From a virus (lineage: Duplodnaviria; Caudoviricetes): a DNA stretch of 64,000 nucleotides. Location of the stretch: the IMG/VR virus record IMGVR_UViG_3300031953_000001; one strand, given 5' to 3'. Position numbers and translations under genes: made by a program. Under the pieces are notes generated by a model. It saw only the letters and a list, made by a program, of their open reading frames with translations. It ran no database searches and was not told the DNA's origin. Shown here piece by piece: positions 22,807-45,193 of this stretch; position 1 is the first letter of the stretch, and each line of letters starts with the position of its first letter.

Positions 22807-23961
22807 TTAAGTGAAATTTGGGGCGTTGGTGGACAGCAGTGAACTGTAATCTGCAAAGCTAGCGTATGAGGTAACGTTACTCACATCCCAGCCTTTGATG
22901 TACTGATTGAACGCGGAGGCGAAGTTGAACATTTGCCTCATGTTCGTTACGCTACCGACGTTCCAGTTGTTCAGGGGTTGGTTGAAGACACTGGCTCGGT
23001 TGAACATGCCCTCCATGTTAATAACCTGACTGACGTTCCAACCGCCGATGGCGCCATTAAACGCACCCGCTTGTCTAAACGTATCCGTCATAGTTAATAC
23101 GCTACTCACGTCCCAACCACTGATGTCTTGGTTAAAGACGTTAGTTGACTTGAACATGTACGCTATACTCACCACACCACTGACATCCCAAGCGGCCAAC
23201 GGCTGGTTGAACGCATAAGCAAGTAAGAACATCGACGTCATGTCCACTACGTTGCTCGTGTCCCAGTGATTGATGTTGCTGTTAAAGTTAGTGGCGCTGT
23301 AGAACATCTGAGCGCAGCTTGCGCCTGGTAAAAAGGTCGGGCCATCGCTGGCGCTGATCACAAACCCAGTTCGCCGAGCAAACATCGCCTGAGCCGAAGC
23401 GAACTCCACCTCACCCCATTGCATCACGTCTTTGAGTTGCTGTTGCGATTCGACTAATGGGTTAGTGAAACCATTGATCGTACCGTGAACTTCTACGGTG
23501 TATTGGCCGGGTGTCGAGTAGTCGTGTGAGGCAGCTCCAGTGAACGCCTGAATTTCTGACCCATCGCCCCAGTCGATGGTGACGTCACTGCCTGTGGCAA
23601 AGGACAGAATCACGTTGGTCGCACCGCCGGCCGTACCCTCGGTGTCCACCAGTAATTTCATACCGTCACCGAACAGACGTCCGGTGCGGAGGATGGTGGC
23701 GATGTCGTCGCGAACCAACGCGTTCATGGCCGCAGGGCGGCTGAACAGTTGGTCGTCATTGGTAACCGTAGGGTCGTCTTGTTTGACCTGAGAAATCAGC
23801 TTAGCGTACTCATCTCCTGTGGCTATGGCCAACGCTTTAGCGTCATCGAGTGCCTGTTGTGTGATGGTGCTGGTGCTGAAATCCAACACGGCTTGCTTGT
23901 AATCGTCGATTGCGGTATTGAGTTCGGCTCGTTTTACATCCAGGTCGTTCAGGGTCGCCAT
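22807..23961 (-). CDS. DUF285/BspA-type repeat protein (6 repeats) with PKD-like domain, copy 1
   Basis: 25-aa repeats FNxxIxxWdVSxVxxMxxMF; IDWGDG...HDYSTPGQYTV. Confidence 0.85.
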   Translation of the reverse strand: MATLNDLDVKRAELNTAIDDYKQAVLDFSTSTITQQALDDAKALAIATGDEYAKLISQVKQDDPTVTNDDQLFSRPAAMNALVRDDIATILRTGRLFGDGMKLLVDTEGTAGGATNVILSFATGSDVTIDWGDGSEIQAFTGAASHDYSTPGQYTVEVHGTINGFTNPLVESQQQLKDVMQWGEVEFASAQAMFARRTGFVISASDGPTFLPGASCAQMFYSATNFNSNINHWDTSNVVDMTSMFLLAYAFNQPLAAWDVSGVVSIAYMFKSTNVFNQDISGWDVSSVLTMTDTFRQAGAFNGAIGGWNVSQVINMEGMFNRASVFNQPLNNWNVGSVTNMRQMFNFASAFNQYIKGWDVSNVTSYASFADYSSLLSTNAPNFT

Positions 23962-24012
23962 ATCAAATTCCAGTGTGGTGTCATTAGGGGGTGATCATAG
24001 AATGTTGGATTA

Positions 24013-24759
24013 TCAACCGGGAGGTTTGGGGGGGATAGAGACACTGGAACCAAAGTGTGTGATGAACCATTTCCAACTCAAATCCACGAAGATCGCCTCC
24101 CAGGTTTCCACGGGCGTAGGACTTGTCCCATTCGGGTCGATGTTTTGAAACATAGCGTTGATGGCCACGTCAGAGATGGCGTCCGAGTATTGAGTCAACA
24201 ACACATTTACCTTAGCGGCGTCCAGTGGCCAAGCTACGTCGAGGATGTCAGGTTCAGCTTCCAATCGAGGCGAGCTGGCGGGTGTCGGTTCAGGCGTGGC
24301 AAGCGGGTCGGCGACTATGAAGTCGTCGTAATAACTCAAAGGTCGACTGAGGGTGGTTTCAATAAACCCACCCATAACGAAAATGGCTTTGGCGTTGCTG
24401 TTGACCAAGGTGCTGGCATCGCCTGCCCCGTGACCGTAATGTACCGACAAGAACCCAAACAATCCGGAAATGACGTTCTTCACCGTCTGAGCAGGCAAGG
24501 GGGCGTGATTGACATACCCCATCAACGCTGTATTAAAGACGAGCCAGTAAGGTGCGTACTCCACACTGCCCGCTTGGCGATCGGATCGATCGTAGGTGTA
24601 GGCCTCCATGGCCAGTAATTTGTGATAAAACGGAAGGTCGTACTCACCAATGCGGGCATCGATCTTTGATTCAAGGTGCGGTATGACCAATCCCAACGAC
24701 TGCAACTGAGTGCGCAGCGCCTCGTCGGCGATGTCGGCGTACGGAATGGTGGCGGGCAT
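24013..24759 (-). CDS. hypothetical protein
   Basis: 248-aa ORF directly downstream of the PAAR-like gene. Confidence 0.6.
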   Translation of the reverse strand: MPATIPYADIADEALRTQLQSLGLVIPHLESKIDARIGEYDLPFYHKLLAMEAYTYDRSDRQAGSVEYAPYWLVFNTALMGYVNHAPLPAQTVKNVISGLFGFLSVHYGHGAGDASTLVNSNAKAIFVMGGFIETTLSRPLSYYDDFIVADPLATPEPTPASSPRLEAEPDILDVAWPLDAAKVNVLLTQYSDAISDVAINAMFQNIDPNGTSPTPVETWEAIFVDLSWKWFITHFGSSVSIPPKPPG

Positions 24760-24760
24760 G

Positions 24761-25066
24761 TTAATCTCCTGTGGTAGAATCGGGGGAGCCGGTGGTCAGT
24801 ATGTAGGTGCCGCCCGGCAATAAACCAAGATCGCCAATGCGATGCACGCCTTGGCCTTCGGCTCGGGTGGTCTGTGAGCTGCCAGAGACGATGCTCACGT
24901 GACCGCACGTCGATAACCCTAGGCTGAGTCGGGTCGTCACTGGGATGCCGTTAGCGCCAACCGTAGCCGCCCCTGTGACCATGGTGGTGATTATGCCGAT
25001 GGTGCCAGGATGGGGAGAACAGGTCCCTATCCCAATGTCTCCGATACGTCCAGGGGGTTTGCTCAT
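24761..25066 (-). CDS. PAAR-like spike tip protein (phiKZ gp163-like)
   Basis: RIGD...CSPHPG...CGH...RIGD motifs, about 100 aa, directly after the spike gene. Confidence 0.75.
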   Translation of the reverse strand: MSKPPGRIGDIGIGTCSPHPGTIGIITTMVTGAATVGANGIPVTTRLSLGLSTCGHVSIVSGSSQTTRAEGQGVHRIGDLGLLPGGTYILTTGSPDSTTGD

Positions 25067-25077
25067 GGGGTGCCTCA

Positions 25078-26739
25078 CTAAGCGTAGTAGTTTGTAAGAC
25101 CGGGTGTGTATTTGCCGTTCAACATGGTTAGCAGTTGCCCGCGCTGATGGGTTTTGATGGGGTCAAAGCTGATGTGCAACCAAATAGAGTTGCCGTGTTC
25201 AAAGATCAGCTGGTCGCACGGTAGGTTCTCAGCAATCCATTCGGCCACCTCCATGTACTTCTGAGACGACCACCCAGCCCCTTGAATGTCGGCGGCTTGA
25301 CCGCGGGTGTGTTGACTGGCGCCATTTCCCACGCGATAACCGGAGTTGACCGTGAAGTCCCCAAATTGATCGGCGGTGGGCTGCAGTATCTTTTCAGCCA
25401 AGTGTTCCAAGTTAGACACAAGGTCTTGAACGCTTAACCCCCCCTGCGCTCGGATAGAATGAGGGAAGACCGCTTGGGCTGACAACTCCCCGATGGTGAA
25501 CTGAGTTGACCCTAAGCGAAGACTGTAGTCTACCCGCACGCCGATCTCGGTGGTGCTGGTCAATTCCCCAGTGGGCTTTTCCGTTGACTGCTGGGTTGAG
25601 ACTACTTTAGCCTCACCGGTGTACCCGCTCGGTTTAGTGTCCGGCGGATAGAAGGATGGAATCGAGTCGATCTCCCCTTCCTCGTCCAAGACCGCAAACC
25701 GCCCTGCGCTTTGTCGAAGCGTGGCGGTGGCTTTGATGCCGTACTCTTTACTCAGAGGTACCGGGTCGGGACGGACAATCGCCACAGGCGTCGGCTCTGG
25801 TCCTTTGGTGCCGTCTTGAATAGCGCCTGTGTCCACCACAGGGGCCATGCCTGCTTGGAAGTTGACACCAACCCCATCCATGGCCACAGCCCCGTCAGAC
25901 AGCACTGTGTGGCCGCCTGCGTGATAGTGCCCAGCCTCGCCCAGCACCACTTCGGTCTTATTGCCGTTGCACAACACGTTCCAATCCCCGCCGACAAACT
26001 GGTTTAAATTGCCTTCAACGTAATGCAACATGTCGCCGCCTGAGGACGCTTGCATGACATCGTCACTGCGTACCCGCACTTTGTCTTTGGCGTAGCCGTA
26101 CATCCGAGTCTTTTCTAAGGTGACTTCGGTCATGTCCTTGTTGATGGCCTGAATCTTGGTCTTGGCCGAATCCAAGGTTACCGTGTTGCCCACCTGGTCG
26201 GTCAAAAAGAACTTACCCTTGGCCGTATCCAGCTGCATGGTGTATTCAAAAGGCTCGCCGTTGGCTTGGGTGGTGTGCAAGGTCAAATGTTTGCCGTGGG
26301 TGGAGATCTCCAAGGAGTACATGTTCTCTGGCAAACTCAATGATACCTTCTCATCGGAGGTGGCGCTCCAGGCGTAGATGACCGTCTCCAGGCGACGTAG
26401 GTCATCGTCTATGCCCATGGGACTCCAGTAGTACTGATCAACGTCGGCGTATTGCCAGATCAGCAGGTGCTCCCCGCGGCGAACGTCGGGAGAGCTGACT
26501 CGGTTGCTGCCCCAAGGTAACCATCGCGCTGTGAGCGTGCTGGAGGTGTTGAGTACCACCGAGTAATCCACTCCGTTTTTATCAACGCCACCCACTTCGG
26601 TTTGCGTTAACGCCTCAATCAAGTCGCCGTCTACCCCAGGCACCAATTCGATGGGGGTGATGGGCAACTCGTGACTGTCGAGCGCTTTGTTTTCTGCCGC
26701 GACTCCGATGGAGACCACGCGCAGTTTGGATTTGAACAT
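25078..26739 (-). CDS. central spike protein (phiKZ gp164-like) fused to C-terminal M15 Zn peptidase
   Basis: Spike-like N-terminal part with beta-strand-rich repeats; C-terminal NSGYR...SQHTRGQAAD...WLHISF. Confidence 0.78.
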   Translation of the reverse strand: MFKSKLRVVSIGVAAENKALDSHELPITPIELVPGVDGDLIEALTQTEVGGVDKNGVDYSVVLNTSSTLTARWLPWGSNRVSSPDVRRGEHLLIWQYADVDQYYWSPMGIDDDLRRLETVIYAWSATSDEKVSLSLPENMYSLEISTHGKHLTLHTTQANGEPFEYTMQLDTAKGKFFLTDQVGNTVTLDSAKTKIQAINKDMTEVTLEKTRMYGYAKDKVRVRSDDVMQASSGGDMLHYVEGNLNQFVGGDWNVLCNGNKTEVVLGEAGHYHAGGHTVLSDGAVAMDGVGVNFQAGMAPVVDTGAIQDGTKGPEPTPVAIVRPDPVPLSKEYGIKATATLRQSAGRFAVLDEEGEIDSIPSFYPPDTKPSGYTGEAKVVSTQQSTEKPTGELTSTTEIGVRVDYSLRLGSTQFTIGELSAQAVFPHSIRAQGGLSVQDLVSNLEHLAEKILQPTADQFGDFTVNSGYRVGNGASQHTRGQAADIQGAGWSSQKYMEVAEWIAENLPCDQLIFEHGNSIWLHISFDPIKTHQRGQLLTMLNGKYTPGLTNYYA

Positions 26740-26828
26740 AATGCCGCTCCTAAAATGTTTCTTTCATTACATTAATGAGTCACAGTATAGATTGAGACAC
26801 CCGCCGCACCTACTTACAAGTGAGCGCT

Positions 26829-29297
26829 ATGTACATTAAGAAAGTGATCCTCAACGGATACAAGCGTATTCTACTCAGCGACATCAGATCGCTGACCATC
26901 ACCATGGACAGTGTCTTTCAAGTGATCCTGGGCACCAATGGCAGCGGTAAGAGCTCGTTGCTGCAAGAGTTAACGCCTTTGCCTGGAGACCCTAAGGATT
27001 ACCTCAAAGGAGGCAGTAAAGAGATTCACATCCAGCACAACGGCCATGACTACGTGATGACGTCCGAGTACAACGGGGCCAAGCACCATCATTGCTTTTT
27101 GAAAGACACCGAAGAGAAGAACGACGGTCACACCATCACCGTGCAACGGGAGTTGGTGCGTCAAGAGTTTGGTATCACCGAAGAGATCCGCGACTTGCTG
27201 ACTGGGGGGTTGCGCTTTACTCAAATGTCCCCCACCAAACGACGTGAAGTCATCACCCAAATGTCCGACACCGATTTGACCTACGCCATGGGGATCTACA
27301 AGAAACTGGCCACCATAGCGCGCGACAACCAAGGTACGGTCAAACACATCCGTCAGCGCATTGCAAAAGAGACGGATCAGTTGCGTGCTTTGGGCACTCA
27401 AGACGACATAGAGTCGGACGTAAAGAAGCTGCAAGACGAGCTCACCACCTTAATGGAGCACCGTCGTGCCGATCTACCTCAGTCGAGAGACGTGGAACGT
27501 CGCTTAGAGGCCACGCTAAGCTCCGCAGATGCTATTGCTCATAAGATCCTGACCTATCCCTACCGGGAAGGTGAAGCCCAGTACGGGTCCTTAGAGACCC
27601 TCACAGAGGCTACTCGAGAAAGACGCTCTCAAATACAAAGTAAGCAAGAGCTGTTGAGTCATCAAACCAAAGAACACGACAAGCTGGCGTCCTTGGTCGG
27701 ATCGCTCGGTGAGAGCGGTGTGGGGGATTTAACGGAGTTGGCTAAGAAAGCCGAGACCTTAACGGCTCGCATCGCTGCAGAGGATGCTAAGTTGGGGGAG
27801 TTCCGCTTCACCGACGACGTGAGCGACCTAGTGCCTGTGGCGCAATCGATCAAGCTGCAACTAACCGAGATTCTCAACGAGCTACCGGACAACGCCGAGC
27901 GGCGGTTCTCACGGGCTCAGTTGGAGTCGGTGGAGCAGGCCTTAAAAGAGATGCGTTCAGTGGCGGACACCAATGCCTCCAAAGCGTCTCGATGCAGCAA
28001 AGAGATTGACCACATCTTAAGCACCAAAGAGAACACCTGTCCTAAGTGCACTTACGTGTGGCGCGATGGCGTCAGTGAGGGCGATGTGGTGGTGTTGCAG
28101 GCTCGGCGTAAAGAGTACGAGGCCGCGGCTGCAGACGCCGAGGCGGCGTTCAAGGCCCACTCCGAATACCGGGAAGCCATCCATCACTACGCACATCACT
28201 TTGGGCGCATTCGAACGTTGGCCCACGCTTACCCCAAAGCCAAGAACCTGTTCGACTGGTTAATGGAAGACGATCGCATCTATCACGCGCCAGCGCAATA
28301 CATCCCGACGATCGACCGATGGATGCGGGATCTGTACATCACCGGGGAATCTCAACAGCATCAGAAAGAACTGAAGATGGTGAACGAGACTTTGGCGAAA
28401 GCCCAGATGCTCAGCGACACCAACGTGGATCACATCGGCGATACTCTGCAGGACCTGCATCGTCAGATTCAAAGTACCAGTGAGGAGGTGCGTCAAGGTA
28501 AAGTAGAGCTTGGGGCTCTGGAGAAGCGTCAAACTCACGCAACGAGAGCCGAAGGGTGGGGGCAGCAGTTGACTGAGCTGTATCAGCAGATACAACAAGA
28601 CCACGGGGTGATGACCGAGTGTTTGAAATCGGAGACCTTGGCGCGGTTGATTCGAGGACATCAATCGGAACTGGCGATCAAGACGCAGAAACTTAACGAG
28701 AAAGAATCGGTGGTGGGGATCATCAAGGATCTGGAGAAGTCCTTGGCCGAGGTGGATCGTGCGCACGAGACGCACAAGTTGCTGTGTAAAGCCTTGTCAC
28801 CCACCGATGGGGTTATTGCTGAGCAGATGACGGCGTTCATCGCCTGTTTGACCGATCAACTCAACGACATCCTGGAGCAGATCTACACTTACCCGTTGAA
28901 GATCTACCCGTGCGGTTACGATTCCGGGGAATTGGATTATAAGTTTCCATTGGTCGCAGGCGATGATCAAGTCCATGCCCCGGACATCAACAAGGGGTCT
29001 GAGGGACAGCAAGAGATCGTTGACTTTGCGTTTAAACTGATCGCGTCTTTATACTTGGGGTTTAACAACTACCCTCTGTACTTGGATGAGGTCGGGCAGA
29101 ATCAAGACGAGACGCACCTGACCAACGTGATGAACTACGTTAAGATGTTGATCGACGCCGACCGTCACAGTCAATTGTTCATGATCAGCCATTACGCCCA
29201 GGGACACGGAAGCTTTACCCAAGCCGATTACCTGGTGCTGAACGGAGCAAACATCAGTACCCCGCAAAGACACAACGAACACGCCATACTGGCTTAA
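26829..29297 (+). CDS. sbcC: SbcC/Rad50-like SMC ATPase
   Basis: Walker A GTNGSGKS, coiled coil with CPKC hook, GSEGQ signature, YLDE Walker B, ISH. Confidence 0.88.
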   Translation: MYIKKVILNGYKRILLSDIRSLTITMDSVFQVILGTNGSGKSSLLQELTPLPGDPKDYLKGGSKEIHIQHNGHDYVMTSEYNGAKHHHCFLKDTEEKNDGHTITVQRELVRQEFGITEEIRDLLTGGLRFTQMSPTKRREVITQMSDTDLTYAMGIYKKLATIARDNQGTVKHIRQRIAKETDQLRALGTQDDIESDVKKLQDELTTLMEHRRADLPQSRDVERRLEATLSSADAIAHKILTYPYREGEAQYGSLETLTEATRERRSQIQSKQELLSHQTKEHDKLASLVGSLGESGVGDLTELAKKAETLTARIAAEDAKLGEFRFTDDVSDLVPVAQSIKLQLTEILNELPDNAERRFSRAQLESVEQALKEMRSVADTNASKASRCSKEIDHILSTKENTCPKCTYVWRDGVSEGDVVVLQARRKEYEAAAADAEAAFKAHSEYREAIHHYAHHFGRIRTLAHAYPKAKNLFDWLMEDDRIYHAPAQYIPTIDRWMRDLYITGESQQHQKELKMVNETLAKAQMLSDTNVDHIGDTLQDLHRQIQSTSEEVRQGKVELGALEKRQTHATRAEGWGQQLTELYQQIQQDHGVMTECLKSETLARLIRGHQSELAIKTQKLNEKESVVGIIKDLEKSLAEVDRAHETHKLLCKALSPTDGVIAEQMTAFIACLTDQLNDILEQIYTYPLKIYPCGYDSGELDYKFPLVAGDDQVHAPDINKGSEGQQEIVDFAFKLIASLYLGFNNYPLYLDEVGQNQDETHLTNVMNYVKMLIDADRHSQLFMISHYAQGHGSFTQADYLVLNGANISTPQRHNEHAILA

Positions 29298-29302
29298 CCC
29301 AA

Positions 29303-29325
29303 GAGAGGGACCTAAGGTCCCTCTC
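29303..29325 (+). terminator. terminator-like hairpin
   Basis: GAGAGGGACC-TAA-GGTCCCTCTC directly after the SbcC stop. Confidence 0.65.
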
Positions 29326-29431
29326 TCTATGCCGTTTTGACTGTGATCCGAGCGAATCTCAAACCTATATCACACAGGTGAGTTGGTTCCACGAACCGCA
29401 TACCCCATACCCTATAGAAAGGAATTCCCTT

Positions 29432-29629
29432 ATGTTGAACAAAATCATCATCGTTATATTTCTCAGTGTGATCGCGTTTGGAATCGGCGATCTTCTAATT
29501 GCCAATCATCATCCACTGCTGGGTCTGTTCACTACCCTGGCCGCCGGTTTAGGACTGATCAACGGCTTAGTGTTGGTCGTGTTGATGGTTCTGTGTGGTG
29601 AGTTTCAATTGTCCAGTTTTACCGATTAA
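29432..29629 (+). CDS. small membrane protein (2 TM)
   Basis: MLNKIIIVIFLSVIAFG... with AAGGA SD; two hydrophobic segments. Confidence 0.6.
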   Translation: MLNKIIIVIFLSVIAFGIGDLLIANHHPLLGLFTTLAAGLGLINGLVLVVLMVLCGEFQLSSFTD

Positions 29630-29654
29630 TGCGATACCGGCTAGGAGAACGCCC

Positions 29655-29963
29655 ATGTCCACTAAAACCAATAACTATTCAGATGCTAAACGTACAGACC
29701 ACGGCGTTGATGTCGCAGCCCACGTCTTGTTGACTGCACGGGTTCGATACGTCACTAGCAAAGTTAAGCACCAAAGGCTGGATTACTTCAAGTTAGTTAC
29801 TCAACTCAATCTGGCGGGCAATGACGCCGATGCCGAGCGCGTTGCTCGACTAACCGAACAAGTCTCCGCTGCCTACGAAACTCTGAACCAAACCAGAGAC
29901 GCCCTAGGTAAACTCCAAGGTCTTCTTAACGAAGTGTCAGAACGGTTGGAGTCGAGTCAGTAA
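29655..29963 (+). CDS. hypothetical protein
   Basis: AGGAG SD then ATG 29655; helical sequence. Confidence 0.6.
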   Translation: MSTKTNNYSDAKRTDHGVDVAAHVLLTARVRYVTSKVKHQRLDYFKLVTQLNLAGNDADAERVARLTEQVSAAYETLNQTRDALGKLQGLLNEVSERLESSQ

Positions 29964-30011
29964 CAGTATGAGCGTTTGATCGGTTATCCCACAAACTTTA
30001 GGAGTGGTGTT

Positions 30012-30371
30012 ATGATTGTTAATACAGCGTATCAAGCCAACGCGTTATTAGAAGACAAGAACCATCAACTGATAGCGCGAGCCATCACGTTCTATGTTCC
30101 CAGTGCGTTTTATTTGTCGAACCATCACCGGCGACTGAAACTGTTGTCAGCGGTTGAATCGCATTACCAGTTCCAGGGACGCGTGATGTCGTTGATGGTG
30201 GCGGAACAAACCGATATCGGTAAACAGATCGTCTCCATTCGCCGAGACCCTAACAGCTCAATTGGTGAACTCCAGGTCAATCGTTCGCCCACATTGGCCC
30301 CGGGTTTCCGTTTAGGCGGTGAGGTTATTGCCATCGCCGTTGACACGGTAGAGAATTCTATTCTTCACTAA
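30012..30371 (+). CDS. hypothetical protein
   Basis: GGAG SD then ATG 30012. Confidence 0.55.
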   Translation: MIVNTAYQANALLEDKNHQLIARAITFYVPSAFYLSNHHRRLKLLSAVESHYQFQGRVMSLMVAEQTDIGKQIVSIRRDPNSSIGELQVNRSPTLAPGFRLGGEVIAIAVDTVENSILH

Positions 30372-30383
30372 GGGAAGGCCGGC

Positions 30384-37027: not shown

Positions 37028-37471
37028 ATGATTGTCTTACGTAAAGCACTGCTGTTGATACTCAAACCTCTGATCTTGATACTGACGTCTGTGTGTGGGT
37101 TGCTTTTACCCGCTCGAGGAAAGCGGATTATCTTTGCGGCATCTTTGTACACGCATCTGAACCGAATCGACCCCAGTCAACTGGATCAGGCCGCCATGGC
37201 GGAATACCTGGACGAGCTTAACCGCTTGTTTCAATTGACCGGACGAGAGCATCGCGCGTTGCTCATGCCGTTGATGTTGCACGAGTTGATTTGGGCGGAC
37301 GTAGACCTGCCCGACAACGAGCGACTGACTAAGCAAACGGTGCAAAGTAACTGTGAGGTTTTACTCAAACGCATTCCGCAATGGCTAAAGTACGATCACA
37401 AGGTGATGCGTGATGACGCGTCTTTGATCGTGCGGCGCTGTGCGGGCCGACATTTACGTTTACAGTCTTGA
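37028..37471 (+). CDS. hypothetical protein, hydrophobic N-terminus
   Basis: 147-aa ORF. Confidence 0.55.
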   Translation: MIVLRKALLLILKPLILILTSVCGLLLPARGKRIIFAASLYTHLNRIDPSQLDQAAMAEYLDELNRLFQLTGREHRALLMPLMLHELIWADVDLPDNERLTKQTVQSNCEVLLKRIPQWLKYDHKVMRDDASLIVRRCAGRHLRLQS

Positions 37472-37514
37472 CCCTCAGTGGGTGTGAGGGCAGTCGAGAA
37501 TAAGGAGATAGGCA

Positions 37515-37979
37515 ATGATGTACGATCCAACGCTCCCAGAGGTCTTTGGGTATCGCGGTGAATTCTTCTTCTTAAGCAACTTCTACCCCCACATGAACCC
37601 TCTGATAGAAACGTTTCAAGGAACCTCTATCTGTTACCCTACCGCCGAACACGCCTATCAAGCGTCTAAGTCACTGCGTCTGGCCTCAAGATTGACGGTC
37701 GCCAACGCCCCCACTCCCGGGAAATCCAAAGTGGCAGGTCGCAGTTTGGCCTTGCGACTGGATTGGGATAAGGTTCACCTCGACGTCATGCGTCACTGGG
37801 TGCGAGAAAAGTTCGCACAGGAGCACTTGGCACAGAAGTTGATCGAGACCTACCCCAGGAAGCTGGTAGAAGCCAATAGCCATGGGGATCAGTACTGGGG
37901 CACTGATGAGTTTGGCGACGGTCTGAACTGGCTTGGAGAGCTTCAGATGGAGTTTCGTTTGGAATTGATTGAACGTTAA
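37515..37979 (+). CDS. NADAR (YbiA/DUF1768) family protein
   Basis: FLSNFY, YPTAEHAYQA, DWD, KF, LVEAN..GDQYWG, NWLG. Confidence 0.85.
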   Translation: MMYDPTLPEVFGYRGEFFFLSNFYPHMNPLIETFQGTSICYPTAEHAYQASKSLRLASRLTVANAPTPGKSKVAGRSLALRLDWDKVHLDVMRHWVREKFAQEHLAQKLIETYPRKLVEANSHGDQYWGTDEFGDGLNWLGELQMEFRLELIER

Positions 37980-37992
37980 AACAGCATAAACA

Positions 37993-38015
37993 GAGGAGGC
38001 CTTTTGGGCCTCCTC
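37993..38015. terminator. bidirectional terminator hairpin
   Basis: GAGGAGGCC-TTTTG-GGCCTCCTC between convergent genes. Confidence 0.8.
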
Positions 38016-38039
38016 TTATTCGGTCCTACTTAGTTGAAG

Positions 38040-39569
38040 TTACAAGATGCCAAGTTGGGCATTGCTTGGGCGTTGGTTAACAGTCAAGTTAGACCCACCT
38101 GAGAAGGCACTGGCAGTCACAACGTTATCGACATTCCACATGGAGATGTTCTGACCGAACGTCGATGCACTAAAGAACATCGTAGCCATGTCCGTAACAC
38201 TAGACGTGTTCCAAGCATTTAGTGGTTGATTAAAGGCCCCTGCGGATCTGAACATGGAACTCATGTCAGTGACGTTCGACACGTTCCAGTTATTCAGCGG
38301 ACGGTTAAAAGTAATTGCATCAAAAAACATGGAGTCCATACTGGTCACGTTAATTGTGTTCCACGTGTTCAACGTGCCATTAAAGGCTGACGCGCCGCGG
38401 AACATGCGAACCATGTCAGTGACCTTGGAAACATTAAAGTGATCTATCGATTGGATAAACGAGATGGCAGTATTGAACATCTCCCTCATGGTTGTCACGT
38501 TGCCTGTATTCCACCCAGCTAACGAACCATTGAACACGCTGGCGCCGAGGAACATACGAGACATGTCCGTAACCGCACTCACATTCCAAGTGTTCAGGTG
38601 CCGGTTGAACGCGCTGGCGTTGTAGAACATGTTACTCGTGTTAAGACAGCTGCTCAGGTTCCAGTCGTTTACCGAGCCGTTGAAACTCAACGCATGTGAG
38701 AACATGTGTCTCGCGTCTACCACATTACTGACATTCCAAGTATTCAAGGCTTGATTGAAGGTACTGGCGTAAATGAACATCTGTTCCGTCTTAGTGACAC
38801 CACTCACATCCCATGAGTTCAGCGGTTGGTTGAAGACGGTGGCCTGGGCGAACATCGACGTCATATCAACGACGTTAGACACATCCCAATGGTTGATGTT
38901 GCTGTTGAAGTCACCGGCAGCCTGGAACATGCTAATGCAGCTTGCGCCCGGCAAGAAGGTCGGTTCGTCACTGGCACTGATCACAAACCCAGTACGATCA
39001 CGGAACATGCTCTCAGTAGACGCGAACGTGGCCACGCCCCACTGCATGACGTCTTTGATCTGTTTCCGGTTGGCGATCAACGATCTTGTGAAACCATTGA
39101 TCATACCGTGGACTTCTACGGTATATTGACCTGGCGCGGAGTAAGTGTGAGAGGCAGCGCCGGTATAAGACTGATACCCAGAGTTATCGCCCCAGTCAAT
39201 GGTGATGTCGGAGCCAGTCTCAAACGACAGGATGACGTTGGTGGCACCTACGGTGGTGGCTTCGGTATCCACCAACAGTTTCATACCTTGACCGAACATT
39301 TTACCGGTCGTGACGATAGTGGCGATGTCGCCGCGGACCAAGGCGTTCATCCGCCCTGGATTGGAGAACAACTGATCGTCGTTGGTGACGGCTGGGTCGT
39401 CTTGCTTAACCTGAGAGATGAGCTTCGCGTACTCATCGCCTTTGGCTTGTGCCGCAGCGCGAGTGGCATCTATGTCTACTTGAACCCCAGAGACGACGGC
39501 TGCCGTGTGGTTTTCAATGGCGGTGTTCAGTTCTAGGCGTTTTGCGTTTAAGTCGTTTAAATCGGCCAC
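38040..39569 (-). CDS. DUF285/BspA-type repeat protein (11 repeats), copy 2
   Basis: Same N-terminal anchor and PKD-like domain as copy 1; 11 x 25-aa repeats; GTG start. Confidence 0.85.
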   Translation of the reverse strand: MADLNDLNAKRLELNTAIENHTAAVVSGVQVDIDATRAAAQAKGDEYAKLISQVKQDDPAVTNDDQLFSNPGRMNALVRGDIATIVTTGKMFGQGMKLLVDTEATTVGATNVILSFETGSDITIDWGDNSGYQSYTGAASHTYSAPGQYTVEVHGMINGFTRSLIANRKQIKDVMQWGVATFASTESMFRDRTGFVISASDEPTFLPGASCISMFQAAGDFNSNINHWDVSNVVDMTSMFAQATVFNQPLNSWDVSGVTKTEQMFIYASTFNQALNTWNVSNVVDARHMFSHALSFNGSVNDWNLSSCLNTSNMFYNASAFNRHLNTWNVSAVTDMSRMFLGASVFNGSLAGWNTGNVTTMREMFNTAISFIQSIDHFNVSKVTDMVRMFRGASAFNGTLNTWNTINVTSMDSMFFDAITFNRPLNNWNVSNVTDMSSMFRSAGAFNQPLNAWNTSSVTDMATMFFSASTFGQNISMWNVDNVVTASAFSGGSNLTVNQRPSNAQLGIL

Positions 39570-39630
39570 GTGGGTATCCTTTTAAGTAGGAGAATAAGAG
39601 GACAAGGTGTCCTCTGTATTTGGGCTAACG

Positions 39631-40455
39631 TTATTCGGTGGCCAAGGCACCGGCGGCTTCGATCGAGGCTTGCAATTGCTCGATCATGAACGTGTGGGTG
39701 GCGTAGAACTCTACCTCTTGAGCCATGACGAAACTGACCTTGGCCAACTCGGAAATGCTAACACCGGAGGCGGCGTAGGTCTCTGGGTCGGACTCCATAC
39801 GTTGCAGGAGCTTATCCAAATGCTCGCTGATCGTTTTCACCAAGTCCAGTACCGTCTTCCGCGGGACCCGAGCCAGACGTTCTACCAGATCGTTGTACTC
39901 ACTGGCAATTTTAGGCCATTCCGCTTGACGGGTGATCAGATCCCCGTACGGACGGCGTTCGGCACCATCGCGAGAGAAGTCTTTGGCGATCAAGTCGCGG
40001 ATCGACTCTATGTCGTGAGTAACCACCTTATCCACTATTTTGGATTCACGTTGGGACTGCAAAGTCGAGGGGTCGGTGAGTAGTACAGCTAAGTGCTTCT
40101 CAAACGGTTCAAGGGTCTCTTGAATCAACCCGTCTACAGCGTCCTGAGCCTTATTGAGCGTGCTTAAGTGTTTAAGGTACGTGGTAGCCAGGCCTTTGGG
40201 AACCATCACTGGGGTGCGTCTGAGCAGCATGTAGTTGGATTTCTTAGACAGCTGATAGTGTTTGCTTTCGTTCAGCAGGTCCAGCTCCACGTCAACGTCG
40301 CTCAGCGAGTTGGAAACGAACTCGGTGACTTTGCTGAAATACGCCGGAAGTTTCTGTCGGAGGTAGTCAAAAGAACCCCGAAACGACAGAGCCTCGGTAG
40401 TCAATTCCAGTGCTGCTTGTTCAAGAACGCCCAGGTCGATGGGTTGCTCAGACAT
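39631..40455 (-). CDS. hypothetical protein (probable virion protein, phiKZ-like)
   Basis: 274-aa helical ORF divergent from UvsX. Confidence 0.6.
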   Translation of the reverse strand: MSEQPIDLGVLEQAALELTTEALSFRGSFDYLRQKLPAYFSKVTEFVSNSLSDVDVELDLLNESKHYQLSKKSNYMLLRRTPVMVPKGLATTYLKHLSTLNKAQDAVDGLIQETLEPFEKHLAVLLTDPSTLQSQRESKIVDKVVTHDIESIRDLIAKDFSRDGAERRPYGDLITRQAEWPKIASEYNDLVERLARVPRKTVLDLVKTISEHLDKLLQRMESDPETYAASGVSISELAKVSFVMAQEVEFYATHTFMIEQLQASIEAAGALATE

Positions 40456-40586
40456 AAGTTACTCCGATTATACTCGAAAGGTTGGATACGGTTCATAAAA
40501 TTTAACGGTACTCGGCTATGGTTTGACCTGAAGCATCGCACTTAGCCGCGGTATCTACAACGAACATACCATTTTAGGAGTCTTAC

Positions 40587-42041
40587 ATGACAGGCTTTAC
40601 TCCTGCCCCACACATTCGCCCTCGGCCTTGCCTTGGTTCCCTGATGGACATTCCCGCAGGCCGTTACCACAAAGGTAAACTGGGCGATATGATTTTGAAT
40701 GGGGGATTCAGTAATTTCGTTGGCATTGGCGGACGAGGCAACACTTTCAAGACAGCATTAGGATTGTCCAACGCACTGACCGTCTTGGACCGATACACCA
40801 ACGCTGAGCTGGTGGTGTACGATGCAGAGATCACGTTTGCGTGGGACCGCATTGAAGACATGTGCGCACGGTATCGAAACATTGACTGGGCCGAAGCAGC
40901 CGATGCGGGACGTATCGTTCTGACGTCAGCGGCAGAGCACAGCGGCAATGCTTGGTGGCAGCTTATTCGGGATCAAGCCGAAGAGCGTGTTAAACAAATG
41001 AAGAAGATGAAGACCAACACGCCGTTCATCGATCGACAAGGCACTCCCATCAAAGCCTTCCCCCCGATGATCCATTTCCTGGACTCTATGAGTCAGCTGC
41101 AAACGGACGCCGTGGAAGAGATTTATAAGAAGCACGAAATCGACGCAGGTGCCGCCAACACCGACGCCCTTAGAGGGGCGGCGATCAAGACGCGTCTGGT
41201 CATGCAAGTTCCTCAAGTCACGTCGGGTGCGGGCATGACGCTGATTGCCACCGCCCACGTGGGCGATGAGATGAAGCTGGACCCTTACGCCCCCGCCAAG
41301 CAACAGTTGGCGTTCTTGAAGAAAGGCTTGAAGTTTAAGAACTGCCCGGAGAAGTTTACCTTCTTGACCTCAAACTGCTGGGTCGTCTCTGATGCCTCGC
41401 CGTTGTTGAACAAGAGCACCAAGTCGCCTGAGTACCCACTGCCGGGTATGAACGATGCGGTAGGCGATACCGATCTACAAGAGCTGACGGTCATTAACGT
41501 GCGCTCCAAGTCAGGACCCACAGGACACACCTTTAAACTGATCATCTCTCAAACCGAAGGACTGCTCTCAAGTCTGAGTGAGTTCCACTACCTTAAGTCT
41601 AGGAAAGACAAGTTCGGACTGGAAGGTCCTGAGGGCGTGACTAAAGACTATCGATTGATCCTGTACCCAGAGCCAATTCTTAAACGGACTAAGGTGCGCG
41701 ACACCATCGATGAGCTCCCACGTCTGCGACGGGCTTTGGAAATCACGTCGGAACTAGGCCAGATCTATGACTACTGGCCGGATTTCCCAAGAGACGATGT
41801 GGTGCAGCCAAAAGCGCTGTACGACAAATTAACGGCACAAGGATACGATTGGGACGTGTTGTTGGACACCCGTGGGTATTGGACGTTCGACCATTACGAA
41901 AACGAAGTCCACCCACTGTCCACCATGGACCTGATCAACATGTATCATGAGCGGTACATCCCGTTCTGGTACCCCGACAAAGACAAATTGAAAGTCACAC
42001 TAAAACCAAATGGTGATACCGATGGCGAGATCAACGCGTGA
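40587..42041 (+). CDS. uvsX: UvsX/RecA-like recombinase (phiKZ gp152-like)
   Basis: P-loop GRGNTFKT, Walker B IHFLDS, LIATAH; position in phiKZ-like gene order. Confidence 0.8.
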   Translation: MTGFTPAPHIRPRPCLGSLMDIPAGRYHKGKLGDMILNGGFSNFVGIGGRGNTFKTALGLSNALTVLDRYTNAELVVYDAEITFAWDRIEDMCARYRNIDWAEAADAGRIVLTSAAEHSGNAWWQLIRDQAEERVKQMKKMKTNTPFIDRQGTPIKAFPPMIHFLDSMSQLQTDAVEEIYKKHEIDAGAANTDALRGAAIKTRLVMQVPQVTSGAGMTLIATAHVGDEMKLDPYAPAKQQLAFLKKGLKFKNCPEKFTFLTSNCWVVSDASPLLNKSTKSPEYPLPGMNDAVGDTDLQELTVINVRSKSGPTGHTFKLIISQTEGLLSSLSEFHYLKSRKDKFGLEGPEGVTKDYRLILYPEPILKRTKVRDTIDELPRLRRALEITSELGQIYDYWPDFPRDDVVQPKALYDKLTAQGYDWDVLLDTRGYWTFDHYENEVHPLSTMDLINMYHERYIPFWYPDKDKLKVTLKPNGDTDGEINA

Positions 42042-42360
42042 TCTAGCGGCAGAGTTGTTTGCTCTGCTGGGTTCACGCTCACCCGATCATGCGGAGCGTT
42101 GGAAAGCGCTCTTCATCAACCGACACCCGTGGTGGACAACTGGTCCACTGCCGGATGTAAGCATTCAGATTCGTGAGATCAATGAGTTTTGGCGTGTGCA
42201 GTTAGGTATGCTCCTGGGAGACACCTTGCACGCTCGGAGTTGCATTGTAGACAACCTGGAGCCAGATGTGTGGCTGGGTAACTTCAAACGTTACGTCATG
42301 GAGGCTGTATTATACGAACCATTACCCAACCAGCGGTGGCAAGGACATTGCTGCGCGTAA
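42022..42360 (+). CDS. hypothetical protein
   Basis: Overlaps the UvsX stop; about 112 aa. Confidence 0.55.
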   Translation: MARSTRDLAAELFALLGSRSPDHAERWKALFINRHPWWTTGPLPDVSIQIREINEFWRVQLGMLLGDTLHARSCIVDNLEPDVWLGNFKRYVMEAVLYEPLPNQRWQGHCCA

Positions 42361-42767
42361 TCGTGGCGGGTTCACGGACGGTGAAGGATTATCTTTACGT
42401 TCGTGATCGCCTCTTAACGTTTGTGCGAGATCATCCGGATTGTGAGATTGTGTGGGTGAGCGGTATGGCCGCCGAAGGTCCCGATGACATGGCGTATCAC
42501 TTCGCGCGCTGGGACATGCCCGGTCAGTGGGTTGAGATGGCCGCGGATTGGGATTCTTACGGCAAAAGCGCAGGCTACATCCGCAACGCCGAAATGGCTA
42601 AGTTGGCCGATGAACTGCTGTTGTTCTGGGACGGGCGCTCTAACGGCTCCCGCCACATGCGTGAGACCATGAACAAACAAGGTAAGCCGGTTACCACTCA
42701 CGTGCTGGACGTAACCACGTCTGAAGGCGACTTTGAGATCTTCGACTTTAGGACCATTGCCCTGTAA
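42336..42767 (+). CDS. SLOG family (DUF2493/YspA-like) protein
   Basis: VIVAGSR, VSGMA.EGPD, GKSAGYIRNAEM, LFWDGRSNGSRHM. Confidence 0.8.
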   Translation: MARTLLRVIVAGSRTVKDYLYVRDRLLTFVRDHPDCEIVWVSGMAAEGPDDMAYHFARWDMPGQWVEMAADWDSYGKSAGYIRNAEMAKLADELLLFWDGRSNGSRHMRETMNKQGKPVTTHVLDVTTSEGDFEIFDFRTIAL

Positions 42768-42879
42768 CTGTCCGAGTTCGCTCGGGTGGTTGCAGGGCCT
42801 TATGGCGTCTGTGATGATCGTTATCCTATGTCAGTTTCCATGCACACACGCCACGGCCAGCGACCTAGGGTAAAGTTAT

Positions 42880-43959
42880 ATGAGCACTATATCAGATCTT
42901 AATATCAAACGCGATGAGTTGAACGCAGCCATCAACGACTACAAGCAAGCGGTCGGCGACTTTGCCGCCAGCACCATCACACAGCAAGCCTTGAATGATG
43001 CTAAAGCGTTGGCTATTTTAACGGGTGATGAGTATGCTAAGCTGATCTCTCAAGTCAAGCAAGACGATCCCAACGTGACCAACGACGATCAGCTGTTCAG
43101 TCGTCCGTCGGCGATGAACGCCCTGGTAAGAGACGACGTGGCGGTCATCCTGACCACCGGGTCATTCTTTGGGTCTGGCCTGAAGCTTTTAATCGACACC
43201 GAAGCCACCACCGTCGGGGCCACCAACGTTGTCCTGCCTTTCGCCGTAGGCAGTGATGTCACCATCGAGTGGGGAGACGCAACCGCGCGTCAGTCGTTCA
43301 CAGGCGCCGCCAGCCACAACTACGCCACGCCTGGGCAGTATGAAATTCAGATCATCGGTACGGTGAATGGGTTTACCGCCCCAGCAGTGATCGATCGTCG
43401 TACCATCAAAGATGTTCTACAGTGGGGAAATGTTGAGTTTCAGTCCACAGAGCTTATGTTCCGCGACCGTACGGGCTTTGTGATCTCAGCTTCGGATTTC
43501 CCACGCTTCCTACCCGGCGCCTTCATGCGAGCGATGTTTGAGAACGCCAGTGACTTCAATAGCAACATCGAACACTGGGACACGAGTAACGTAGTGGACA
43601 TGATGAGGGTATTTAAAGGAAATACCGTGTTCAACCAACCGTTGAATGCATGGGAGGTGGGTAACGTTATTAACATGGATGAAATGTTTCGGCTGGCTCT
43701 CGCGTTCAATCAAAACATCAACGACTGGGACGTCGGTAAGGTTGAGCGGATGAGACTGATGTTTATGGACACGGATTCCTACAGTCAAGGCATGTCCCGT
43801 TGGAACACAGAATCGGCCGTTGAGATGACCGGCATGTTCCGTAACGCGGGTGTGTTTAACGAGAATCTGTCTTCGTGGAATGTGAGTAACGTCCTTTACT
43901 ACACTCAGTTCAGCGATGGTACTCCTATGTTTACATCGAATTTACCTAACTTCCAATAA
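42880..43959 (+). CDS. DUF285/BspA-type repeat protein (5 repeats), copy 3
   Basis: Shared anchor GDEYAKLISQVKQDDP; 5 repeats. Confidence 0.85.
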   Translation: MSTISDLNIKRDELNAAINDYKQAVGDFAASTITQQALNDAKALAILTGDEYAKLISQVKQDDPNVTNDDQLFSRPSAMNALVRDDVAVILTTGSFFGSGLKLLIDTEATTVGATNVVLPFAVGSDVTIEWGDATARQSFTGAASHNYATPGQYEIQIIGTVNGFTAPAVIDRRTIKDVLQWGNVEFQSTELMFRDRTGFVISASDFPRFLPGAFMRAMFENASDFNSNIEHWDTSNVVDMMRVFKGNTVFNQPLNAWEVGNVINMDEMFRLALAFNQNINDWDVGKVERMRLMFMDTDSYSQGMSRWNTESAVEMTGMFRNAGVFNENLSSWNVSNVLYYTQFSDGTPMFTSNLPNFQ

Positions 43960-43967
43960 CCGAATAA

Positions 43968-43989
43968 GAGGAGGCCCAAAGGCCTCCTC
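43968..43989 (+). terminator. terminator hairpin shared with DUF285 copies 1 and 2
   Basis: GAGGAGGCC-CAAA-GGCCTCCTC followed by TGTTTGTTT. Confidence 0.75.
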
Positions 43990-44035
43990 TGTTTGTTTCA
44001 TCCATTAAGAATACGCAACTAGGAAATCGATCGTC

Positions 44036-45193
44036 ATGGCGACTTTACAAGACTTAGACTTAAAGCGGGTTGAACTCAACAGCGCGATTAACGATTACAA
44101 GCAAGCGGTGGTGGATTTCAGAAACGCCACAAACACCCAAGGTGACGTAGACGCCGCTAAAGCCTTAGCCGTCACCAAAGGCGATGAGTACGCTAAGCTG
44201 ATCTCTCAAGTCAAGCAAGACGATCCCAACGTGACCAACGATGATCAGCTGTTCAGCCGCCCTGCGGCCATGAACGCCTTGGTGCGGGACGATGTGGCGA
44301 CCATCGTTCGTACCGGACGCCTGTTTGGCGACGGCATGAAGCTTTTAATCGACACCGAAGGCAACGCGGCTAACGCCACCAACGTCATCCTGTCCTTTGC
44401 CACAGGCAGTGCGATTGATGTGGATTGGGGCGATGGCAGCAACATTCAGGCGTTTACAGGTGCAGCCAGCCACAATTACGCCATTCCAGGACAGTACACT
44501 GTCGAGGTTCACGGCACCGTCAACGGTTTCACCTCACCGCTGGTGGAGAGTCGTCAACAACTTAAGGATGTGATGCAGTGGGGTGAGCTGGAATTTGCCA
44601 ATGCGAACCTCATGTTCCGATCTCGCACTGGGTTTGTGATCAGCGCAGCCGATGGTCCGACCTTCTTACCCGGATGTTCGTGCACGACTATGTTTTATGG
44701 GGCATCTGACTTTAACTCAAACATCAATCATTGGGATGTGAGCAACGTTGTCGATATGGCCTCAATGTTCGCCTCAACCGACGCTTTCAATCAACCCTTG
44801 AATTTGTGGAATGTGGGTAACGTTGTCAATATGGCCTCAATGTTCTACTATGCCAGCTTATTCAATCAGCCCTTGAACAGCTGGAACGTGTCGAAAGTAA
44901 CGAATTTCGCATCCATGTTCAGAGACGCCGCGGCCTTTAATCAGCCGTTGAGTCCTTGGGTCGTTTCTTCAGCAGTAGACATGAGGGCCATGTTTATGTA
45001 CGCCAGCGCCTTCAATCAGAATCTGGGCCCCTGGAATGTGAGTAATGTCATCACCCTGTTCCGCATGTTCTACAAAGCCACGGTGTTCAACAAGAACATC
45101 GCCGCTTGGAACGTGAGTAGCGTTACAGATACTAATAGTTACAATGATTTTGCGTATCTATCGAGTTTGGCCGGTAGCAACTCGCCGTTTTAA
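44036..45193 (+). CDS. DUF285/BspA-type repeat protein (6 repeats), copy 4
   Basis: Shared anchor; 6 repeats. Confidence 0.85.
   Translation: MATLQDLDLKRVELNSAINDYKQAVVDFRNATNTQGDVDAAKALAVTKGDEYAKLISQVKQDDPNVTNDDQLFSRPAAMNALVRDDVATIVRTGRLFGDGMKLLIDTEGNAANATNVILSFATGSAIDVDWGDGSNIQAFTGAASHNYAIPGQYTVEVHGTVNGFTSPLVESRQQLKDVMQWGELEFANANLMFRSRTGFVISAADGPTFLPGCSCTTMFYGASDFNSNINHWDVSNVVDMASMFASTDAFNQPLNLWNVGNVVNMASMFYYASLFNQPLNSWNVSKVTNFASMFRDAAAFNQPLSPWVVSSAVDMRAMFMYASAFNQNLGPWNVSNVITLFRMFYKATVFNKNIAAWNVSSVTDTNSYNDFAYLSSLAGSNSPF

What the first reader, a model, noticed from the sequence alone, without database searches (positions are those of the whole stretch)
22807..45193. Four dispersed DUF285/BspA-repeat paralogs with a common anchor and 5, 6, 6 and 11 repeats
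Seen: genes at 22807-23961, 38040-39569, 42880-43959 and 44036-45193 share a helical N-terminal module (GDEYAKLISQVKQDDPxVTNDDQLFS), a PKD-like domain and exact 25-aa repeats. Lengths 359/384/385/509 aa differ by multiples of about 25. They sit at three separate sites, in both orientations, among conserved core genes. Established: these repeats form LRR-like binding solenoids in bacterial surface proteins. Inference: an interchangeable set of virion adhesins or decorations that dock through the same anchor.
Basis: partly seen in the sequence, partly recalled or inferred. Interest (0 to 1): 0.68.

Follow-up and report, generated by a model that had tools for sequence, protein, structure and literature searches.

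The report
Swappable adhesin heads on new phage anchor
A giant nucleus-forming phage from brine carries a gene family (four copies in this window, nine in the genome) that joins a previously undescribed 95-residue helical front end to a leucine-rich-repeat binding head; the head matches that of a protein found in particles of phage Goslar, so these are probably interchangeable host-binding proteins on the virus particle, though this has not been shown.

Summary
The four ORFs exist as described: 384, 509, 359 and 385 aa, 54-68% identical, with DUF285 at E 1e-43 to 1e-93. Their repeat period is exactly 25 residues, with 6, 11, 5 and 6 units. The whole 222-kb phiKZ-like genome holds seven full-length copies and two anchor-only genes.

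The ~95-aa N-terminal module is new. It matches no Pfam or PHROG family and no GenBank phage. Only about 25 clusters among 1.84 billion representative proteins carry it. In relatives it is fused to other heads (beta-propeller, possibly LamG-like, an unknown beta domain) or stands alone, so "one anchor, swappable heads" is supported.

The head cassette (PKD-like sandwich plus DUF285 solenoid) is homologous to the head of Goslar gp161 (hhalign 99.3%). gp161 is one of the DUF7941 "fibre cloud" proteins that Basu et al. 2026 report as virion-associated. The anchor itself is unrelated to DUF7941.

Virion attachment is therefore likely (about 0.6) but rests on homology of the head, gene context and late-type TATG promoter motifs. 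The docking partner is unknown.

This scan had already described the same family from another window of this genome (e1-5408368). I rate it a new variant of a known kind.

The parts
22807..23961 (-). Paralog P1 (P0001, 384 aa): anchor residues 1-100, beta-sandwich 101-165, solenoid about 170-384 with 6 canonical 25-aa units
38040..39569 (-). Paralog P2 (P0002, 509 aa, GTG start): anchor, sandwich and 11 units (unit 7 has Phe in place of Trp); it lacks the C-terminal PNF tail of the others
42880..43959 (+). Paralog P3 (P0003, 359 aa): anchor, sandwich and 5 units; first gene of a tandem pair
44036..45193 (+). Paralog P4 (P0004, 385 aa): anchor, sandwich and 6 units; holds the only DNA-level tandem repeat (75-nt period, 80% matches, 44732-44877)
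23662..23961 (-). Coding segment for the P1 anchor module (alpha-hairpin 4-29/35-62, conserved acidic loop, third helix 81-93). Equivalent segments: 39285-39569(-), 42880-43179(+), 44036-44335(+)
22775..22799 (.). GC-rich hairpin terminator 3' of P1. The 15-mer CCGAATAAGAGGAGG directly follows the stop codon here and after P3, and lies 16 nt past the stop of P2; it occurs nowhere else in the genome
37992..38016 (.). Same hairpin terminator 3' of P2
43967..43990 (.). Same hairpin terminator 3' of P3, between P3 and P4
45222..45241 (+). Hairpin terminator 3' of P4 (a different sequence)
42823..42832 (+). Promoter-like ATCCTATGTC 57 nt upstream of P3. The same decamer precedes paralogs A and G outside the window. 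It contains TATG, the phiKZ late-promoter core
   Evidence: PMC4666361
23993..24003 (-). Weaker TATG-containing motif (ATTCTATGATC) about 40 nt upstream of P1

Best explanation
Each gene is a self-contained cassette of its own promoter-like motif, ORF and hairpin terminator, encoding a three-part protein. Part 1 is a ~95-residue N-terminal module: a long antiparallel alpha-hairpin, a strongly conserved acidic loop (DDPxVTxDDxLFSxP) and a third helix. Part 2 is a small PKD-like beta-sandwich. Part 3 is a DUF285/BspA-type leucine-rich-repeat solenoid of 5-11 exact 25-residue units whose positions 7, 17, 18, 21, 22 and 24 are hypervariable. I propose that the proteins are made late and attached to the outside of the virion through the common N-terminal module. 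That module would dock non-covalently to a repeated site. The peripheral baseplate or its single DUF7941 filament protein is my first guess, and the capsid lattice my second. The different solenoid heads would bind different host-surface ligands, giving the phage a mixed, exchangeable set of adhesins. SHOWN: the family and its architecture, the modular exchange of heads on one anchor, the homology of the head to Goslar gp161, and purifying selection on the anchor. INFERRED: late expression, virion location, docking and ligand binding.
For: (1) Architecture: the AF2 model built with an alignment has pLDDT 92.9 and shows a helical hairpin, a beta-sandwich and a solenoid. The solenoid matches BspA-type LRR structures 4fs7 and 6mlx at Z about 14.
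(2) Modularity: a profile of the anchor finds only about 25 true clusters among 1.84 billion representatives. The anchor is fused to PKD+DUF285, to a beta-propeller (P0020; Atlas TM 0.76-0.81), to a weak LamG-like domain (P0028) or to an unknown beta domain (P0012/13), or it stands alone. The homology breaks at about residue 96.
(3) Head homology: family residues 90-313 align with Goslar gp161 residues 265-460 at hhalign probability 99.3%, E 9.6e-21. gp161 is DUF7941 + DUF285. It is one of ten DUF7941 proteins that Basu et al. 2026 report associated with Goslar virions and propose to form baseplate-anchored host-recognition filaments (bioRxiv 10.64898/2026.04.21.720040).
(4) Context: P1 lies between tail-fibre-like genes and the baseplate/lysozyme gene plus SbcC. 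Phages OBP and Yubaba carry giant DUF285 proteins beside the same baseplate and SbcC genes. The anchor-only gene s2 lies directly after the major capsid gene, and its positional orthologue in a relative is a full-length family member.
(5) Promoter motif: AT[GC][GC]TATG is strongly enriched in non-coding DNA (16 of 25 sites lie in 5.7% of the genome, all upstream of same-strand genes). It precedes four anchor genes and also a tail-fibre-like gene and a gene weakly like internal head proteins. TATG is the phiKZ late-promoter core (PMC4666361).
(6) The anchor is under purifying selection rather than gene conversion: 84% amino-acid identity but near-random synonymous codons.
(7) The N-terminus is hydrophilic and has no signal peptide (read from the sequence), so a surface-binding head can only reach a cell surface on a virion or after lysis.
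(8) Two DUF285 proteins are packaged in particles of the giant virus AaV (PMC7507832).
Against: There are no proteomic, structural or expression data for this uncultured phage or any anchor-bearing relative. The anchor is unrelated to DUF7941, so the Goslar evidence transfers only to the head, not to the attachment. Most copies sit beside replication or transcription genes (PhuZ, DNA polymerase, RNAP beta, a UvsX-like gene) rather than in structural modules. Four of the nine genes (P2, P4, F, s1) have no TATG motif in their upstream spacer, and TATG alone is not sufficient for a late promoter even in phiKZ. LRR solenoids can bind intracellular targets as well.
Confidence: 0.6

Rival explanations
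1. Non-virion, host-directed proteins. The LRR heads bind host cytoplasmic or envelope proteins during infection, for example as defence decoys or takeover factors. The N-terminal hairpin would be an oligomerisation or localisation element rather than a virion dock.
For: The copies are dispersed as single-gene units among replication and transcription genes. Giant viruses expand DUF285 and other repeat families fused to enzymes such as E3 ligases. LRR folds bind proteins in many intracellular systems. Four of the nine genes lack the late-type motif.
Against: The head cassette is homologous to that of gp161, a Goslar DUF7941 protein reported as virion-associated. The alternative heads (propeller, possibly LamG-like) are typical extracellular binding modules. 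From my own knowledge, not checked here: Ig/PKD-like domains in phages are reported on virion proteins (Fraser et al. 2006, J Mol Biol). One copy is linked to the capsid gene.
Confidence: 0.17
2. A self-assembling fibre rather than a docking adaptor. The hairpin modules of the nine proteins would bundle with each other into homo- or hetero-oligomeric coiled-coil stalks that themselves form a fibre. This would parallel the head-to-tail DUF7941 filaments, and only one end would touch the virion.
For: The N-terminus is a long antiparallel alpha-hairpin like those that pack into helical bundles; its nearest solved match is the MexA hairpin, Z 10.4. Head-less anchor-only proteins exist and are conserved in relatives, as expected of filler subunits such as Goslar gp23.
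Against: The strongest conservation lies in a loop and the end of helix 2, not in a heptad pattern along the helices. That fits one conserved external partner better than self-association.
Confidence: 0.12
3. Capsid-internal cargo. The N-terminal module would be a prohead-targeting propeptide, removed by the head protease at the G-D-E site, and the LRR proteins would be ejected into the host with the DNA.
For: The four window proteins have G-D-E at residues 49-51 (44-46 in the shorter P2), which fits the S/A/G-x-E cleavage motif of phiKZ-type prohead proteases (motif recalled from my own knowledge; sequences). One copy lies beside the capsid gene.
Against: The Glu of the motif is not conserved across the family (GYD, GKT, GDA and GES variants), whereas residues after it are the most conserved. 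The PKD, propeller and possibly LamG-like heads point to extracellular ligands.
Confidence: 0.04

Closest known systems
Goslar gp161 and the DUF7941 'fibre cloud' family of Chimalliviridae (Basu et al. 2026, bioRxiv 10.64898/2026.04.21.720040)
   Same: Both are multi-copy families in a nucleus-forming jumbo phage, with a shared N-terminal module and different binding heads. The head of gp161 (sandwich, cap and DUF285 repeats; residues 265-460) is homologous to the head here (hhalign 99.3%). Head-less members exist in both families.
   Different: The N-terminal module here is about 95 aa and helical, with no detectable similarity to DUF7941 (276 positions). This phage and its relative each have only one DUF7941 gene, against ten in Goslar. 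Virion association and filament formation are reported for the Goslar family, not for this one.
Bacterial BspA-type / DUF285 (PF03382) leucine-rich-repeat surface proteins; solved relatives BACOVA_04585 (4fs7) and TpLRR (6mlx)
   Same: The repeat family and solenoid fold are the same. Thousands of bacterial homologues match the repeat region at 35-55% identity.
   Different: There is no signal peptide, lipobox or T9SS sorting domain. A phage-specific helical anchor takes their place, and the proteins are short (5-11 units).
Giant DUF285 proteins of cultured jumbo phages (OBP_145, 1713 aa; PAU gp103, 1857 aa; Yubaba 'outer surface protein')
   Same: They are DUF285 repeats in jumbo phages. OBP_145 and the Yubaba protein lie beside the baseplate and SbcC genes, near where P1 lies.
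   Different: Each is one very long protein with many repeat blocks rather than many short paralogs. They have no anchor module and no DUF7941.
Modular receptor-binding proteins and Ig-domain decoration proteins of tailed phages (e.g. T4 Hoc; tail fibres and spikes with a conserved N-terminal attachment domain). From my own knowledge.
   Same: The logic is the same: a conserved N-terminal attachment part, an Ig-like spacer and an exchangeable distal binding part. One copy sits next to the major capsid gene.
   Different: There is no sequence relationship. Nine genes share one anchor, and the heads are probably monomeric solenoids rather than trimeric fibres.

Membership tests
DUF285 / BspA-type LRR (PF03382) | Match to PF03382 above the gathering score | tested here: met
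   147-307 bits against a cut-off of 25, E 2.7e-43 to 8.1e-93
DUF285 / BspA-type LRR (PF03382) | Tandem units of about 25-26 residues forming an LRR-like solenoid | tested here: met
   Exact 25-residue period in 48 units across the 7 genomic copies. AF2 pLDDT is above 95 over the solenoid. VIA Z is 14.0 to 4fs7 and 13.8 to 6mlx.
DUF285 / BspA-type LRR (PF03382) | Export to the cell surface (signal peptide, lipobox or T9SS domain), as in bacterial BspA proteins | tested here: not met
   The N-termini are charged amphipathic helices with no hydrophobic h-region. No sorting domain was found in Pfam. No dedicated signal-peptide predictor was available.
PKD domain (PF00801 / PF18911) | Pfam match above the gathering score | tested here: not met
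   17.2-19.6 bits against 23.5/27 in P1, P2 and P4, and nothing in P3. Relative P0018 passes (30.0 and 24.0 bits).
PKD domain (PF00801 / PF18911) | Ig-like beta-sandwich fold | tested here: inconclusive
   AF2 gives beta-strands over residues 101-165 at pLDDT 94-97. The domain was not folded or searched alone.
Chimallivirus DUF7941 fibre-cloud family (PF25613) | N-terminal DUF7941 module | tested here: not met
   No Pfam hit even at E<=10. hhalign probability is 0.3% against the phage's own DUF7941 protein and 0.15% against gp161.
Chimallivirus DUF7941 fibre-cloud family (PF25613) | Host-recognition head shared with family members (gp161-type LRR head) | tested here: met
   hhalign 99.3%, E 9.6e-21, 185 columns
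Chimallivirus DUF7941 fibre-cloud family (PF25613) | Presence in purified virions and filament formation | not testable with these tools
   The phage is uncultured and no proteome exists.
Capsid decoration proteins (Hoc-like) | Gene linked to the major capsid gene, and protein bound to the capsid lattice | tested here: inconclusive
   The anchor-only gene s2 and its full-length orthologue P0016 lie directly after the MCP gene. The other eight copies do not. Binding was not tested.

The most novel reading that the evidence does not exclude
The 95-residue module is a new non-covalent 'plug' that seats interchangeable heads on a repeated virion site: the lone DUF7941 filament or peripheral baseplate, or the capsid lattice. 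In this clade it would replace the covalent DUF7941-head fusions of Goslar. A single virion could then display a mixture of up to seven adhesins, and the two head-less anchor-only proteins would act as blank plugs that set occupancy.
Probability: 0.3. Interest if true: 0.7.

Novelty: new variant of a known kind. Interest (0 to 1): 0.5.

Why it matters
How nucleus-forming jumbo phages recognise their hosts is poorly understood. The only described system is the DUF7941 fibre cloud, reported in 2026. This family suggests that a second, unrelated attachment module carries the same kind of head, has expanded to nine genes in one genome, and exchanges heads between related phages. If the anchor's docking site were found, it would give a compact, natural plug-in system for displaying binding domains on a jumbo-phage particle. 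It would also help to predict host range from metagenomic jumbo-phage genomes. As it stands, the work defines a new domain family and a testable hypothesis, not a demonstrated mechanism.

Tried and rejected
- Complex prediction of three copies of the anchor (alignment A4) gave score 0.00, 'no answer'.
- Single-sequence AF2 of P1 was useless (pLDDT 42). The run with an alignment worked.
- Foldseek against the PDB gave only weak LRR rows (E about 1e-2). VIA-wide was clearer.
- A profile search of the anchor against PDB sequences gave nothing meaningful (best E 0.033, a designed protein).
- PHROGs found no family for the anchor. Pfam at E<=10 gave only noise.
- The long weak hits of the anchor profile are TPR/STAND proteins and spurious.
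- Megablast of 10 kb of the window against GenBank phages found no match. tblastn of the anchor gave a best E of 0.3.
- The OBP virion-proteome paper (Cornelissen et al. 2012) is not held, so whether OBP_145 is a virion protein stays open.
- I first read locus L016 as the P3/P4 slot. Synteny showed it is the paralog-G locus.
- The prohead-protease cleavage idea (GDE site) lost weight because the Glu is not conserved.
- Recent gene conversion as the cause of the conserved motif was rejected, because synonymous codons are near random.
Full report
OBSERVATION. The window is part of a 222,493-bp IMG/VR virus record with direct terminal repeats, rated complete. Its gene content is that of a phiKZ-like, nucleus-forming jumbo phage: PhuZ tubulin, a phiKZ-type major head protein, split RNA-polymerase beta subunits and a PicA-like protein. 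They are 54-68% identical to one another, and tblastn finds no further copy in the window. All four match PF03382 (DUF285) far above the cut-off, and three give sub-threshold PKD matches. The invariant tryptophan recurs exactly every 25 residues. This gives 6 (P1), 11 (P2), 5 (P3) and 6 (P4) canonical units after two degenerate cap units, and the protein lengths differ by 25 and 125 residues. 'Exact' holds for the period, not for the repeat sequences. At DNA level only one 75-nt repeat, in P4, is still recognisable.

THE FAMILY IS LARGER THAN FOUR. The whole genome holds seven full-length copies. The extra ones are at C1:18832-20043, 119451-120665 and 197033-198187. There are also two short ORFs of 93 and 96 aa that consist of the N-terminal module only. 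The copies are old duplicates. Among identical residues only about 45-55% use the same codon, yet the segment around the quoted motif keeps 84% amino-acid identity. This points to purifying selection on that segment, not recent gene conversion. Within the repeats, framework positions are 85-98% conserved (F1, N2, W8, V13, F20). Positions 7, 17, 18, 21, 22 and 24 are nearly random, with entropy above 3.2 bits.

STRUCTURE. With a 37-sequence alignment, AF2 gives a confident model (pLDDT 92.9). It has a long antiparallel helical hairpin (residues 4-29 and 35-62), a lower-confidence conserved loop and third helix (63-100), a beta-sandwich (101-165) and a solenoid (about 170-384). The solenoid matches BspA-type LRR structures (4fs7 Z 14.0, TpLRR 6mlx Z 13.8). 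The hairpin matches only generic hairpins such as that of MexA. Predicted viral structures with the same solenoid are common in giant viruses, cyanophages and jumbo phages.

THE ANCHOR IS NEW AND MODULAR. A profile of the nine N-terminal modules was searched against 1.84 billion cluster representatives. It found 33 proteins at E<=1e-3. About 25 are true hits, and the long weak ones are TPR/STAND proteins. The module has no Pfam match at E<=10, no PHROG, no PDB sequence relative and no tblastn hit in 50,697 GenBank phage records. Among the true hits the module is fused to several different C-terminal parts:
- PKD+DUF285, the majority of hits;
- a beta-propeller (P0020; Atlas TM 0.76-0.81 to LVIVD/DUF6923 propellers);
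- a weak, sub-threshold Laminin_G_3-like domain (P0028);
- an unidentified beta-rich domain (P0012 and P0013);
- nothing at all (75-109 aa proteins).

tblastn of these relatives against the genome shows that similarity stops at about residue 96. Nearly invariant residues are D6, R11, Y21, G49, P64, F73, S74, P76, R84 and G94.

GENE TURNOVER. A 62%-complete relative holds five copies. In a relative collinear with the DNA-polymerase region, the propeller-headed member sits in tandem with the orthologue of paralog G, and an extra DUF285 member occupies a site that is empty in this genome. In another relative, collinear around the major capsid gene, a full-length member (P0016) occupies the position of the anchor-only gene s2, which lies directly after the MCP gene here. 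Repeat numbers differ between closest relatives, from 4 to 7 and 11. For P1-P4 the repeats diverge faster than the anchor (51-72% against 67-77% identity). One pair is mosaic in the opposite sense.

Each gene looks like an autonomous cassette. The 15-mer CCGAATAAGAGGAGG and the hairpin it begins occur only at the 3' flanks of P1, P2 and P3. It directly follows the stop codon of P1 and P3 and lies 16 nt past the stop of P2. The decamer ATCCTATGTC precedes P3 and paralogs A and G.

LINK TO WHAT IS KNOWN. Earlier notes of this scan (e1-5408368, e1-155102) pointed to Basu et al. 2026, which I read. In the chimallivirus Goslar, ten proteins share a DUF7941 module. gp22 and gp23 are present at about 580 and 2,140 copies per virion by mass spectrometry, and the authors state that the other eight are also associated with virions. 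gp86, gp92 and gp161 add carbohydrate-binding, hydrolase or LRR domains. Purified gp22 forms filaments. The authors propose a baseplate-anchored 'fibre cloud' for host recognition.

I confirmed that gp161 is DUF7941 (residues 4-186) plus DUF285. Its residues 265-460 are homologous to residues 90-313 of the family here, covering the linker, sandwich, cap and first repeats (hhalign 99.3%, E 9.6e-21). The anchor, in contrast, shows no similarity to DUF7941. This phage and its relative each carry only one DUF7941 gene. So the same kind of head, reported on virions in Goslar, sits here on a different and much smaller N-terminal module that has itself expanded to nine genes.

TIMING AND LOCATION, INDIRECT. 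The motif AT[GC][GC]TATG occurs 25 times in the genome, and 16 of these lie in the 5.7% that is non-coding, all upstream of a same-strand gene. Eleven sit at promoter-like distances, and four of those precede anchor genes (A, P3, G, s2). TATG, with its G as the transcription start, is the core of phiKZ late promoters, necessary but not sufficient (PMC4666361). P1 lies between tail-fibre-like genes and the baseplate/lysozyme gene. OBP and Yubaba carry giant DUF285 proteins beside the same baseplate and SbcC genes. Two DUF285 proteins are packaged in AaV particles (PMC7507832). Against this, most copies sit beside replication or transcription genes, and four of the nine have no TATG in their upstream spacer.

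VERDICT. The 'common anchor, interchangeable heads' reading is supported by comparative evidence. 'Virion adhesin' is the best explanation (about 0.6), but it rests on head homology, context and motif. What the anchor binds is unknown.

Rivals are an intracellular host-binding role (0.17), self-assembly of the hairpins into their own fibre (0.12) and capsid-internal cargo (0.04). The last is weakened because the putative cleavage site is not conserved.

The kind of system is known: a chimallivirus multi-paralog adhesin family with swappable heads. The anchor domain, its nine-fold expansion and its apparent substitution for DUF7941 are new, so I rate this a new variant of a known kind. The same family was already reported by this scan from another window of this genome (e1-5408368; also e1-5408419), and my independent analysis agrees with it.

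Noticed in passing
window 22807-22830, 42880-43959 (3' end), 44036-45193 (3' end); also genome copies A, F and G: Most family members, including relatives, end in a conserved C-terminal tail N-x-P-N-F (one or two residues before the stop). P2 instead ends ...NAQLGIL. This could be a solenoid cap or a second short tag.
   Followed up: no
window 22792-22806, 38009-38023, 43960-43974: The 15-mer CCGAATAAGAGGAGG, which starts a GC hairpin terminator, occurs only three times in the 222-kb genome, each time at the 3' flank of P1, P2 or P3. The duplicated unit therefore included the terminator.
   Followed up: partly
genome-wide; in the window e.g. 42823-42830(+), 40565-40572(-), 17947-17954(-), 11855-11862(-): The candidate phage promoter motif AT[GC][GC]TATG is about 11-fold enriched in non-coding DNA and is always oriented towards a downstream gene. 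It may be the late (nvRNAP) promoter of this phage.
   Followed up: partly
G000:C1:140534-141364 (outside the window): This is the only DUF7941 (PF25613) gene of the genome (103.7 bits), against ten in Goslar. It is followed by the same class of GAGGAGG...CCTCCTC hairpin as several anchor genes.
   Followed up: partly
G000:C1:111018-111299 and 148437-148727 (outside the window): There are two anchor-only ORFs (93 and 96 aa). One lies upstream of a 740-aa tail-fibre gene that carries an S74 chaperone domain. The other lies directly after the major capsid gene, with its own ATGGTATG motif.
   Followed up: partly
window 25078-26739 (-): A 553-aa protein joins a baseplate-assembly-protein region (phrog_3216, residues 3-268) to an endolysin-like C-terminus (phrog_894, residues 412-545). 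It is probably a virion-borne cell-wall hydrolase.
   Followed up: no
window 18718-21399 (-) and 16699-17853 (-): Two tail-fibre-like proteins share short segments with many PHROG tail and virion families. The 893-aa protein also has a weak Sortilin-Vps10-type propeller hit. They may form a second modular fibre family next to P1.
   Followed up: no
L016:9770-12229 and genome C1:197033-198187: Paralog G and its closest relative P0042 are mosaic: the anchor is 57% identical but the repeats are 84% identical. This suggests recombination that reshuffles anchors and heads among paralogs.
   Followed up: no
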